Positions 9,531 to 10,585 are shown, numbered from the stretch's first letter. The stretch is 64,000 bases of DNA from Escherichia coli (GCF_048403405.1 NZ_CP183129.1); one strand, 5' to 3'. Translations and numbers: made by a program. Notes: generated by a model from the sequence alone, not told the origin.

Positions 9531-9590
9531 GCAAAATCTCTCGTATTTTGCGAGGCGTTTTCCAGATATGATGTAACAGTTGCAGTTATT
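9531..9590. repeat. Copy A of an imperfect ~50-bp direct repeat (tttgcgaggcgttttccagatatgatgtaacagttgcagtt)
   Basis: About 40 of 52 positions identical to a second copy at about 9985-10040; read directly. Confidence 0.5.
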
Positions 9591-9671
9591 ATAAGTTCAA
9601 GTAAAACAGCCTTGTATTAATACCAGAATAAGGGCATCTGTTTTTTTATATTCAAGAATGAAAAATTTTTG

Positions 9672-9890
9672 TCATTCCTTATGCTCCTTACACTGATCAT
9701 CAACACCAACTACCTCCCCCTTTTGCCTGCCTCCCTTTGCTTTACGCACCGGGAATTGCTGACGTTCCAGATATTGCTCTACCGCTTCGCGTAAAATTGC
9801 AGATCGTGAAACCTTACGCCAGCCCCGAAGCTTGTTCAGCCGTTTAATTGCCTCTTCTGATAAATGAAGAAAAACCGTATTCATCGCCAT
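9672..9890 (-). CDS. yiiF: CopG/ribbon-helix-helix family small putative transcriptional regulator (YiiE/YiiF family)
   Basis: ORF 9672-9917; likely start at MAMNTVFLHLSEEAIKRL... giving 72 aa; RHH-like N-terminus. Assignment to yiiF rather than yiiE is by position next to fdhE only. Confidence 0.55.
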   Translation of the reverse strand: MAMNTVFLHLSEEAIKRLNKLRGWRKVSRSAILREAVEQYLERQQFPVRKAKGGRQKGEVVGVDDQCKEHKE

Positions 9891-9974
9891 TACCAATACC
9901 TTACATATATTACTCATTAATGTATGTGCGAAAATTACGCCGGAAAATCATTTAAAAAAAGCGGATTTTTGCAT

Positions 9975-10040
9975 GTTGTTTTGTTTTTGCGAGACGTTTT
10001 CCAGAAATAATAAGAGCGTTGCAGTTGTTTCATTTGTTAC
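9975..10040. repeat. Copy B of the imperfect ~50-bp direct repeat (tttgcgagacgttttccagaaataataagagcgttgcagtt)
   Basis: Second copy of the motif found at 9531-9590; no intact RHH ORF adjacent to it. Confidence 0.5.
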
Positions 10041-10585
10041 TCAAAAATGGTTTAGTTATCGCCCAGGATGAGTTATGGGTGCTATGAATATATTATATTC
10101 AGGGATGTTTATTTTTTGATTGGATCTTCATTTGCATAATCTGAATGGTGTACCCGAAAAACGTCAGCATCCTAACAGCACCAGGATTTAAGGTGAAATT
10201 TAACATCCATCACAGACCGTTCAATGCTGCCACCAACCGGTCTTTACTTGCTCGTCGTTATAATTTTGTGGGTAACAGTTCGGGAAACAAGGAATTCCTT
10301 CCGGAACACCCCTGACATCATCCGCTAGCATTGTCGTCAATCATCGGCGCGACGATGAGTTTTTTTAATCGCATCATAGGGTGGCAACGGTCAGCACGAT
10401 ACGGGTCATAGCAAAACTCCTGCACAGGCGGCCACTATGCCGCTTTCACAGGAGTTCTGAATGCTAGTGCTTTCTGTATGGCTTCGCTATGCCCCTCGCG
10501 GCTAAGCGCCTGCACACATCTCTCTTTGAATGTCATTTTTGCAATGCATTGTCCGAATTCTGATAATCCTAATGAGTTTTACCCG

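What the first reader, a model, noticed from the sequence alone, without database searches (positions are those of the whole stretch)
9531..10585. Only one yiiE/yiiF-type RHH gene is present; a second copy of its flanking repeat sits next to ORF-free AT-rich DNA
K-12, as I recall it, has two adjacent CopG-like paralogs (yiiE, yiiF) between yiiD and fdhE. Here there is a single 72-aa RHH ORF (9672-9890) flanked by two imperfect ~50-bp repeats (9531-9590 and 9975-10040). Beyond the second repeat there is about 540 bp with no ORF of 60 aa or more in the RHH orientation before the effector-like gene ends. This looks like the scar where one paralog was replaced when the island inserted, or it is unannotated regulatory or sRNA sequence belonging to the island.
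Basis: partly seen in the sequence, partly recalled or inferred. Interest (0 to 1): 0.4.

Follow-up and report, generated by a model that had tools for sequence, protein, structure and literature searches.

The report
yiiF deletion scar beside yiiE
This E. coli strain carries a common natural variant in which one of two neighbouring small regulator genes (yiiF) has been deleted, leaving a stray copy of its upstream control sequence, and the gene-free DNA next door is debris of other lost genes, so this is ordinary genome variation and not a new element.

Summary
The window has one RHH gene (9672-9890, minus strand), two 45-nt repeats with 80% identity (9546-9590 and 9985-10029), and no long ORF up to 10585.

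- **Which gene is missing.** The retained gene is yiiE, identical to K-12 YiiE. The missing one is yiiF, which in K-12 lies between fdhE and yiiE. Its ~600-bp deletion scar is therefore at 9521-9549, beside the first repeat, and is unrelated to the "island".
- **What the repeats are.** They are the paralogous upstream regions of yiiF (now an orphan) and of yiiE. Their core 20-mer (sense CTGGAAAgCGgCTCGCAAAA) sits about 100 nt upstream of yiiF orthologues in 26 of 29 loci from other enterobacterial genera. I read it as an old cis-element whose binding factor is unknown.
- **How common the allele is.** yiiF is absent from 681 of 5426 complete E. coli genomes. The same junction occurs in strains 536 and ABU 83972 and in E. 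whittamii.
- **The ORF-free DNA (10041-10585).** It consists of yiiE's own upstream region, the 3' relic of a 92-aa gene, and a hybrid of a 106-bp repeat left when a nadS / RelE-like / hydrolase module was lost. K-12 carries a further 2048-bp deletion (10288-12335).

There is no evidence for an sRNA, a sigma-54 promoter or a third RHH relic. This is ordinary hotspot polymorphism.

The parts
8528..9457 (+). fdhE, the conserved left anchor of the variable interval
   Evidence: ORF; RefSeq annotation of the 100%-identical record.
9521..9549 (.). Scar of the ~600-bp yiiF deletion. It comprises 15 nt absent from K-12 (9521-9535), then ATCTCTCGTATT, which in K-12 directly follows GACGACACC. The junction is at TATT/TTGCG (9544-9549). 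A quasi-palindrome CGCAAAAT-N7-ATTTTGCG spans 9530-9552.
   Evidence: Block alignment to K-12. Multiple alignments. Hairpin -7.5 kcal/mol, z -2.6. The 66-nt junction is found in one piece in 139 complete E. coli genomes, and the same junction is present in E. whittamii.
9546..9590 (-). Orphan copy of the repeat. It is the distal upstream element of the deleted yiiF; the core 20-mer is 9546-9565, sense CTGGAAAACGCCTCGCAAAA.
   Evidence: Identical to the element 93-137 nt upstream of the yiiF ATG in K-12. In K-12 the homology with the yiiE copy runs 84 nt, of which the 38 promoter-proximal nt are lost here.
9591..9671 (-). Spacer between yiiE and yiiF, retained here. It is paralogous to the region further upstream of yiiE (10030-10118).
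   Evidence: 53 of 78 positions identical; 4 of 500 shuffles reach the score. Near-identical to K-12.
9672..9890 (-). yiiE, a 72-aa ribbon-helix-helix (CopG/RHH_1) protein; intact.
   Evidence: 100% identical to K-12 YiiE, WP_001295676.1. Pfam PF01402 at E 1.6e-11.
9985..10029 (-). Second copy of the repeat. It is yiiE's own upstream element; the core is 9985-10004, 95-114 nt upstream of the yiiE ATG.
   Evidence: Present at the same place in K-12, O157, O121, ABU 83972 and E. whittamii.
10030..10287 (.). Region further upstream of yiiE, conserved in K-12 (about 95% identity), with small indels between strains.
10260..10359 (-). 3' relic (about 35 codons, frameshifted) of a 92-aa hypothetical gene (WP_001296612.1). 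The gene is intact in B2 strains and in Klebsiella spallanzanii. A ~390-bp deletion junction lies at 10359/10360.
   Evidence: tblastn gives two HSPs in different frames, E 8.5e-6 and 2e-4 on the whole window. DNA alignment to ABU 83972. Orthologue in L034.
10341..10368 (+). Terminator-like hairpin plus T7 run. It is formed across the deletion junction and is probably fortuitous.
   Evidence: Scan found 1 site against 1.2 expected. Hairpin z -0.3. Stem and T-run come from opposite sides of the deletion.
10360..10519 (.). DNA that lies downstream of nadS in other strains. 10415-10519 is an A/B hybrid of a 106-bp direct repeat. In O121-type genomes this repeat flanks the nadS / RelE-like / alpha-beta-hydrolase module. 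The hybrid is the product of that module's deletion.
   Evidence: Overlapping alignments to L005. The repeat is 85% identical in O121. The hybrid pattern is visible.
10288..12335 (.). Segment absent from K-12 (a K-12 deletion). It covers the 3' flank and all but the first 39 codons of the 617-aa ORF.
   Evidence: The K-12 pseudogene fragment aligns to 12451-12335.
10586..12439 (-).
   Evidence: No Pfam, NCBIfam, PADLOC or PDB match.

Best explanation
The fdhE-fabY interval is a variable hotspot. Its content differs among E. coli lineages through loss and gain of small gene modules.

Inferred history. The ancestral enterobacterial layout is fabY, a divergent alpha/beta-hydrolase gene, sometimes a RelE-like/nadS pair and a 92-aa gene, then yiiF, then fdhE. 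Escherichia additionally carries yiiE. yiiE looks like a tandem duplicate of a unit of roughly 440-460 bp made of an upstream region plus an RHH gene.

What the window carries. It has an old, widespread allele in which a ~600-bp deletion removed yiiF, its proximal promoter and its downstream flank. The deletion ends in short homology (TATT...GCG) at the edge of yiiF's upstream element. That leaves 45 nt of the element as an orphan at 9546-9590. The second repeat (9985-10029) is the equivalent element of the intact yiiE, in its normal place.

The repeat core. The core 20-mer is conserved in primary sequence and position about 100 nt upstream of yiiF orthologues across genera. It most likely acts as a DNA site for an unidentified regulator of these small operons. 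This step is inferred.

The ORF-free DNA beyond the second repeat. It never held an RHH paralogue. It consists of yiiE's own upstream region plus two further deletion scars. One deletion (~390 bp) truncated the 92-aa gene. The other was recombination between 106-bp direct repeats, which excised the nadS / RelE-like / hydrolase module.
For: Identity and position of the genes.
- YiiE is 100% identical to the K-12 protein, and K-12 has yiiF between fdhE and yiiE.
- Block alignment places the missing ~600 bp at 9521-9545.

yiiF is the ancestral gene.
- In about 27 loci from Citrobacter, Salmonella, Klebsiella, Kluyvera, Trabulsiella, Lelliottia, Kosakonia, Franconibacter and Pseudocitrobacter there is a single RHH gene next to fdhE.
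- That gene is 56-76% identical to YiiF and only 43-57% identical to YiiE.

The orphan is a deletion remnant.
- In 26 of 29 outgroup loci the 20-mer is followed by a proximal promoter and yiiF.
- In K-12 the homology between the yiiF and yiiE upstream regions runs 84 nt; the window keeps only the distal 45 nt.

Allele frequency and age.
- yiiF is found in 4745 and yiiE in 5395 of 5426 genomes.
- The exact junction is in 139 genomes, including strain 536, in ABU 83972 and in E. whittamii.

Motif significance.
- Two hits in the 64-kb window against 0.01-0.02 expected.
- Invariant TGGA...CTCG across 19 aligned sequences.

ORF-free DNA.
Against: - The yiiF-less junction is shared with E. whittamii and B2 strains. 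It is therefore old, and the polarity within Escherichia rests on parsimony.
- The junction carries 15 nt (9521-9535) that K-12 lacks. A simple one-step deletion does not explain these.
- The regulatory role of the 20-mer is untested. No binding protein is identified and no transcript data were available.
- Published K-12 sigma-54 ChIP-seq and SELEX studies do not mark the site.
Confidence: 0.85

Rival explanations
1. A second RHH paralogue once lay beyond the second repeat (10041-10585) and was replaced when the island carrying the 617-aa gene inserted.
For: One paralogue is missing relative to K-12. The repeat spacing (439-447 nt) suggests tandem units. The ORF-free DNA does contain scars.
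Against: The missing gene, yiiF, maps to the other side of yiiE. 10041-10287 is collinear with K-12, which has both genes. No RHH similarity is found in 10119-10585. Presence of yiiF and of the 617-aa gene vary independently. K-12 keeps the 5' end of the 617-aa ORF, so K-12 is the deleted state.
Confidence: 0.02
2. The yiiE-only arrangement is ancestral in Escherichia, and yiiF was inserted later (re-acquired) between yiiE and fdhE in K-12-type lineages.
For: The yiiF-less junction is shared by E. whittamii, B2 strains and the window. K-12-type genomes carry a REP-like element next to yiiF that PS1P lacks, which shows that this segment turns over.
Against: Every outgroup genus has yiiF next to fdhE. 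The orphan 45-mer is the distal part of a yiiF-type upstream region. An insertion would have had to bring exactly the contiguous remainder of that homology.
Confidence: 0.07
3. 10041-10585 encodes an unannotated sRNA, small protein or island-specific regulatory RNA.
For: A plus-strand hairpin with a T7 run lies at 10341-10368, 26 nt after a 56-aa plus-strand ORF at 10145-10315.
Against: There is no Rfam match at E<=1 apart from a spurious lncRNA hit elsewhere. The hairpin is no more stable than shuffled sequence (z -0.3) and is created by a deletion junction. The 56-aa ORF is truncated in K-12 and frameshifted in ABU 83972. The terminator count is not above shuffles.
Confidence: 0.06
4. The repeat core is a sigma-54 (-24 GG / -12 GC) promoter driving yiiE, yiiF and the RelE-like/nadS operon.
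For: The sense strand reads YTGG-N9-TCGCA, with GG and GC invariant at the canonical spacing while spacer bases vary. The orientation matches the downstream genes.
Against: A PWM built from the 135 ChIP-seq sites of PMC4591121 scores the cores at 1.4-7.2 bits, below 134-135 of the 135 real sites. The same PWM recovers glnAp2 and the fdoI site in this window. There is no sigma-54 ChIP-seq or SELEX signal at yiiE or yiiF in K-12, which has both copies.
Confidence: 0.06

Closest known systems
E. coli K-12 yiiE (b3889) and yiiF (b3890), adjacent CopG/RHH_1 genes between yiiD (fabY) and fdhE
   Same: Same locus, and the same yiiE protein at 100% identity. The same upstream element sits before yiiE, and the flanks are about 95% identical.
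   Different: yiiF and about 600 bp around it are absent here. K-12 in turn lacks 10288-12335.
yiiF-less alleles in sequenced strains (E. coli 536, ABU 83972, TUM14771; E. whittamii Sa2BVA5)
   Same: The junction has the same structure, including the orphan element and the quasi-palindrome. TUM14771 is 100% identical over 3.5 kb.
   Different: B2 strains keep the 92-aa gene, nadS, the RelE-like gene and the hydrolase, and lack the 617-aa ORF. The window has the opposite combination.
Solitary RHH regulators such as YbfE (NCBIfam PRK11675, 'LexA regulated protein')
   Same: Small RHH proteins. There is a weak profile similarity (E 0.003-0.005). A LexA-box-like CTGT-N8-ACAG lies upstream of yiiF orthologues in other genera.
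   Different: Scores are far below the family cutoff (18 versus 62 bits). No LexA-like box remains near yiiE in this window, because the hydrolase-proximal region is deleted.
Sigma-54 -24/-12 promoters
   Same: GG-N10-GC geometry and orientation of the repeat core.
   Different: The core fails the PWM built from validated sites, and there is no published occupancy in K-12.
Type II toxin-antitoxin modules with a RelE/HigB-like toxin and an HTH (NadS/HigA-like) antitoxin
   Same: In other strains the neighbouring module is a 103-aa protein with a weak RelE match plus NadS. The window keeps only DNA flanking that module.
   Different: Neither gene is present in the window. YiiE has no partner toxin gene.

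Membership tests
RHH_1 / CopG family (Pfam PF01402) | Significant match to the ribbon-helix-helix profile | tested here: met
   E 1.6e-11, residues 6-43.
yiiE orthologue | Sequence identity and synteny with K-12 yiiE | tested here: met
   72 of 72 residues identical. RefSeq names the same protein accession, WP_001295676.1, in K-12 and in the identical record.
K-12-type yiiE-yiiF tandem pair | A second RHH gene (yiiF) between yiiE and fdhE | tested here: not met
   No yiiF-like sequence anywhere in the 64-kb window. About 600 bp are missing at 9521-9545.
   Collinear with K-12 to 10287. No RHH hit.
Sigma-54 promoter | GG and GC dinucleotides at -24/-12 spacing | tested here: met
   CTGGAAAACGYCTCGCA; the spacing is identical to the ChIP-seq 17-mers.
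Sigma-54 promoter | PWM score within the range of validated E. coli sites | tested here: not met
   4.9-7.2 bits, against a minimum of 6.7, a 5th percentile of 10.0 and a median of 14.4 for the 135 sites.
Sigma-54 promoter | Sigma-54 occupancy in vivo or in vitro | tested here: not met
   Not listed in the ChIP-seq tables or supplements of PMC4591121, nor in the gSELEX of PMC8743547 for K-12, which has both copies. This evidence comes from the literature only.
Known RNA family (Rfam 15) | Covariance-model match | tested here: not met
   No relevant hit at E<=1 in 9300-12900.
Structured 5'-UTR element containing the 20-mer | Conserved base pairs with covariation between the motif and the start codon | tested here: not met
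   RNAalifold on 19 sequences predicted 0 pairs.
Intrinsic terminator (10341-10368, plus strand) | Stable GC-rich hairpin followed by a T-run, conserved | tested here: inconclusive
   The pattern is present. However, the hairpin has z -0.3, the count is not above shuffles, and the structure is created by a deletion junction.
Conserved cis-regulatory DNA site | Conservation of sequence and position across genera, above the flanking intergenic DNA | tested here: met
   The 20-mer, with 4 or fewer (mostly 2 or fewer) mismatches, lies about 110 nt upstream of the yiiF orthologue in 26 of 29 loci, while its flanks are poorly conserved.
Conserved cis-regulatory DNA site | A protein that binds it, and an effect on transcription | not testable with these tools
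   Needs DNA pull-down or DAP-seq, and reporter assays.

The most novel reading that the evidence does not exclude
The conserved 20-mer (TGGAAAG-N3-CTCGCAAAA) is more than a leftover of duplication.

One copy precedes each small module of the locus, always in the same orientation: yiiF, yiiE, and the RelE-like/nadS pair with or without the 92-aa gene. Module boundaries coincide with it in several cases:
- the E. whittamii fusion, where the crossover lies inside the motif;
- the two copies bracketing the RelE-like/nadS module in Pseudocitrobacter and K. spallanzanii;
- the yiiF deletion, which ends at the motif's edge.

It could therefore be either the site of one unknown regulator that co-controls these modules, or a preferred recombination site that lets small regulatory or toxin-antitoxin cassettes be swapped in and out next to fdhE.
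Probability: 0.15. Interest if true: 0.45.

Novelty: already known. Interest (0 to 1): 0.15.

Why it matters
It matters little beyond annotation.

- **Annotation.** The result corrects the reading of this locus. The lost gene is yiiF, which is the ancestral gene conserved across genera. yiiE is the Escherichia-specific extra copy and is the one retained. About one E. coli genome in eight lacks yiiF, so yiiF is dispensable.
- **Comparative use of K-12.** The case shows that "islands" defined against K-12 can actually be K-12 deletions.
- **The one new point.** The conserved 20-mer upstream of yiiF/yiiE-type genes is a modest lead. I found no description of it in the literature I could search. 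It could guide work on the unknown function of these RHH proteins.

Tried and rejected
- **Third, degenerate RHH unit beyond the second repeat.** tblastn with seven YiiE/YiiF variants found nothing in 10119-10585.
- **Sigma-54 promoter in the repeat core.** The geometry fits, but the PWM score is below nearly all validated sites, and there is no ChIP or SELEX signal in K-12.
- **Known RNA family.** No Rfam match.
- **Conserved RNA structure from the motif to the ATG.** 0 pairs predicted.
- **Plus-strand 56-aa ORF 10145-10315 with a terminator.** The ORF is not conserved and the hairpin is no better than shuffles.
- **Plasmid or phage origin of the yiiE cassette.** The only hits were mislabelled chromosomes in PLSDB, and there were none in phages.
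- **Defence-system or known-family assignment.** PADLOC, NCBIfam and Pfam gave nothing for the 617-aa ORF or the 92-aa gene, and the PDB sequence search gave nothing for the 617-aa ORF.
- **Literature on yiiE/yiiF.** I found only incidental mentions. A SELEX RpoS peak in the yiiD-yiiE spacer of K-12 maps, by my coordinate conversion, near the 617-aa ORF remnant and not at the motif.
- **By-eye comparison of the 20-mer with consensus sites recalled from memory** (PurR, MetJ, MarA/SoxS, CpxR, Fis and others). None was convincing. No tool test was done, so this carries no weight.

Full report
**1. What is in the window**

- fdhE ends at 9457 on the plus strand.
- A 72-aa ORF lies at 9672-9890 on the minus strand.
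- A 617-aa low-GC ORF lies at 10586-12439 on the minus strand.
- fabY (yiiD) begins at 13805 on the minus strand.
- The 72-aa ORF matches Pfam RHH_1 at E 1.6e-11. It is residue-for-residue identical to K-12 YiiE, WP_001295676.1.
- tblastn with seven YiiE/YiiF variants finds no other such gene in the whole 64-kb window.
- The repeat is real: 9546-9590 and 9985-10029, 45 nt, 80% identical, 439 nt apart.
- Its 21-nt core occurs exactly twice in 64 kb, against 0.01 expected.
- Weaker homology continues to 9546-9671 versus 9985-10118, with 89 of 123 positions identical.
- No minus-strand ORF longer than 39 aa lies between 10041 and 10585.
- Only the first half of that stretch is AT-rich. GC is 33-38% over 9850-10300 and 49-50% over 10150-10600.

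**2. Which paralogue is missing, and where**

In K-12 the order is fdhE, yiiF, yiiE, a short pseudogene fragment, fabY. Pairwise BLAST gives the following blocks:

| Window | K-12 locus L002 | Note |
|---|---|---|
| 9400-9520 | 1501-1621 | |
| 9546-10287 | 2223-2944 | 95% identity |
| 12336-12900 | 2944-3503 | |

- The window therefore lacks K-12 L002 1622-2222. That segment carries yiiF (1888-2130), its proximal promoter and a REP-like element.
- The scar is at 9521-9545, which abuts the first repeat.
- The gene kept is yiiE and the gene lost is yiiF.
- The second repeat and the following DNA up to 10287 are collinear with K-12, which has both genes. No paralogue was ever lost there.

Alignments show the junction in detail.
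- K-12 reads GACGACACC-ATCTCTCGTATT-CCGCG on the left and TTTTTTAT-TTTTGCGAGG on the right.
- The window reads GACGACACC-[CGCTATTCCCGCAAA]-ATCTCTCGTATT-TTGCGAGG.
- This is a join within TATT...GCG microhomology, plus 15 extra nt.
- The junction forms a quasi-palindrome, CGCAAAAT-N7-ATTTTGCG (-7.5 kcal/mol, z -2.6).
- The exact mechanism (slippage or template switch) is inferred, not shown.

**3. What the repeats are**

- Read on the coding (minus) strand, each copy lies 93-140 nt upstream of an RHH start codon. One precedes yiiF in K-12 and the other precedes yiiE.
- In K-12 the yiiF-upstream and yiiE-upstream homology runs 84 nt. The window's first copy keeps only the distal 45 nt, because the deletion removed the rest. 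It is an orphan promoter-region fragment.
- A third partial copy (20 of 21 nt) lies 122-142 nt upstream of a RelE-like/nadS operon in O121, AH01, LS4 and ABU 83972.

**4. Outgroups**

One scan of species-representative genomes with a YiiE/YiiF alignment returned 35 loci.

- In Citrobacter, Salmonella diarizonae, Klebsiella, Kluyvera, Trabulsiella, Lelliottia, Kosakonia, Franconibacter and Pseudocitrobacter the layout is shared. The order is dtd, fabY, a divergent alpha/beta-hydrolase gene, optionally a RelE-like/nadS pair and a 92-aa gene, then one RHH gene, then fdhE.
- That single RHH gene is 56-76% identical to YiiF and 43-57% identical to YiiE.
- So yiiF is the ancestral gene, and yiiE was found only in Escherichia.
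- The 20-mer CTGGAAAGCGGCTCGCAAAA, with mostly 2 or fewer mismatches, lies about 110 nt upstream of the yiiF orthologue in 26 of 29 such loci, always in the sense orientation. A second copy lies upstream of the RelE-like gene where that module is present. Shuffles of the window give 0.02 hits.
- The flanking intergenic DNA is poorly conserved.
- Since the 20-mer is normally followed by a promoter and yiiF, the gene-less copy in the window is best read as a deletion remnant.
- E. whittamii has yiiE only, with the same junction and the same orphan. The allele is therefore old, or has moved by recombination.

**5. Frequency in E. coli**

- yiiF is detectable in 4745 and yiiE in 5395 of 5426 complete genomes. 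That means 681 genomes (12.6%) lack yiiF.
- A 66-nt probe across the junction hits 139 genomes in one piece, including strain 536. ABU 83972 has a more diverged version of the same junction.
- The 150-nt probe gave 847 genomes, but that figure can include joined two-piece matches.
- TUM14771 is 100% identical to the window over 3.5 kb.
- Presence of yiiF and of the 617-aa gene vary independently.

**6. The ORF-free DNA (10041-10585)**

This stretch is a mosaic.

- **10041-10287.** This is the region further upstream of yiiE, shared with K-12.
- **10260-10359.** This is the frameshifted 3' third of a 92-aa gene (WP_001296612.1). The gene is intact in B2 strains and has a 61%-identical orthologue at the same position in K. 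spallanzanii. A deletion of about 390 bp removed its 5' part; the junction is at 10359/10360.
- **10360-10519.** In other strains this DNA follows nadS. In O121 a 106-bp direct repeat (85% identical) flanks the nadS / RelE-like / hydrolase module. The window's 10415-10519 is A-like on the left and B-like on the right, as expected if recombination between the two copies excised the module.
- **10288-12335.** This segment is simply missing from K-12, which keeps the first 39 codons of the 617-aa ORF. Relative to this window, K-12 is the deleted state.

Nothing in the stretch points to a gene or RNA:
- There is no Rfam match.
- The plus-strand hairpin with a T7 run at 10341-10368 is no more stable than shuffled sequence (z -0.3). 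It is assembled from the two sides of the ~390-bp deletion.
- The 56-aa plus-strand ORF is truncated or frameshifted in other strains.

**7. What the 20-mer does**

- Its YTGG-N9-TCGCA form has sigma-54 geometry, so I tested that idea.
- I built a PWM from the 135 ChIP-seq sites listed in PMC4591121.
- The PWM recovers glnAp2 (33054-33070) and the known fdoI site (8049-8065) as the top two hits in the window.
- It scores the repeat cores at only 1.4-7.2 bits, below 134-135 of the 135 real sites.
- Neither that ChIP-seq study nor the gSELEX study PMC8743547 lists a site at yiiE or yiiF in K-12. I therefore consider sigma-54 unlikely.
- RNAalifold finds no conserved structure between the motif and the start codon. 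This favours a DNA-level site.
- My working mechanism, which is inferred, is a binding site for an unidentified regulator. It would be centred roughly 75-85 nt upstream of the likely yiiE start site. That start site is placed by alignment with the extended -10-like TGATATACT of yiiF orthologues.
- The orphan copy is probably inert. It now faces the 3' end of fdhE.

**8. Comparison with what is known, and verdict**

- The locus is the known K-12 yiiD-yiiE-yiiF-fdhE region.
- The yiiF-less allele is already present, and annotated, in hundreds of public genomes.
- The literature search found only incidental mentions of yiiE and yiiF.
- The finding is a real feature, but it is an ordinary presence/absence polymorphism in a variable hotspot.
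- The only mildly new item is the cross-genus 20-mer and its coincidence with module boundaries. The E. whittamii fusion has its crossover inside the motif, and two copies bracket the RelE-like/nadS module.
- I give the more novel reading, a shared regulator site or a cassette recombination site, a probability of 0.15.
- Overall interest is 0.15.

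Noticed in passing
window 10586-12439 (minus strand): The 617-aa ORF (about 36% GC) is uninterrupted here. It is split into two ORFs in O157:H7 and reduced to 39 codons in K-12, and it is absent from the other genera. It has no Pfam, NCBIfam, PADLOC or PDB sequence match. RefSeq labels its C-terminal half 'transposase', but the family searches run here gave no match to support that.
   Followed up: partly
window 9927-9943 (minus strand): CCGGCGTAATTTTCGCA scores 12.98 bits with the sigma-54 PWM, the 7th best of 128,000 positions. 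Its centre is 45 nt upstream of the yiiE ATG, and it is conserved in the yiiE alleles examined. It is not among the published K-12 sigma-54 ChIP-seq peaks, so it is only a weak lead.
   Followed up: partly
L013-L036 (for example L014 3801-3816); also E. coli L005 and L008 upstream of the RelE-like gene: A LexA-box-like CTGT-N8-ACAG sits at a fixed 71-72 nt upstream of the 20-mer in about 19 outgroup loci. It lies next to the divergent alpha/beta-hydrolase gene. This suggests SOS control of the hydrolase and/or of the RHH or toxin-antitoxin operon. The window has lost this region.
   Followed up: partly
L013-L038, about 17 nt before the yiiF-orthologue start codon (for example L014 3966-3982): A perfect palindrome, ATATAC-N5-GTATAT, overlaps the Shine-Dalgarno sequence GGAGG of yiiF orthologues in many genera. 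It could be an operator or an element that occludes the ribosome-binding site.
   Followed up: no
L005 3073-3178 and 4890-4992; window 10415-10519: A 106-bp direct repeat (85% identical) brackets the nadS / RelE-like / alpha-beta-hydrolase module in O121. The window and PS1P carry an A/B hybrid copy. O157 carries a B-like copy, which implies separate recombination events.
   Followed up: partly
L006 3057-4919 (E. coli LS4): A 1.86-kb insertion carrying a DUF6708 gene and a hypothetical gene lies between the yiiF-upstream element and yiiE. It is another module inserted at the edge of the repeat.
   Followed up: no
L009, L012, L039: Three contigs carry enterobacterial yiiE/yiiF or dtd-fabY-hydrolase-yiiF-fdhE sequence. 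They are filed under Bacillus coahuilensis, an uncultured Robinsoniella and 'Chryseobacterium sp. 18061'. They are probably contamination or mislabelling in the public assemblies.
   Followed up: no
window 8049-8065 and 33054-33070 (plus strand): The sigma-54 PWM recovers the published intragenic fdoI site (CTGGCGCGAATTCTGCA) and the glnAp2 promoter (TTGGCACAGATTTCGCT). They served as positive controls.
   Followed up: yes
L011 (E. coli SCPM-O-B-8794) 1417-1724: This genome has a shortened yiiE variant (61 aa, with a changed C-terminus) and a larger deletion that also removes the orphan element. It is a further decay state of the same locus.
   Followed up: no
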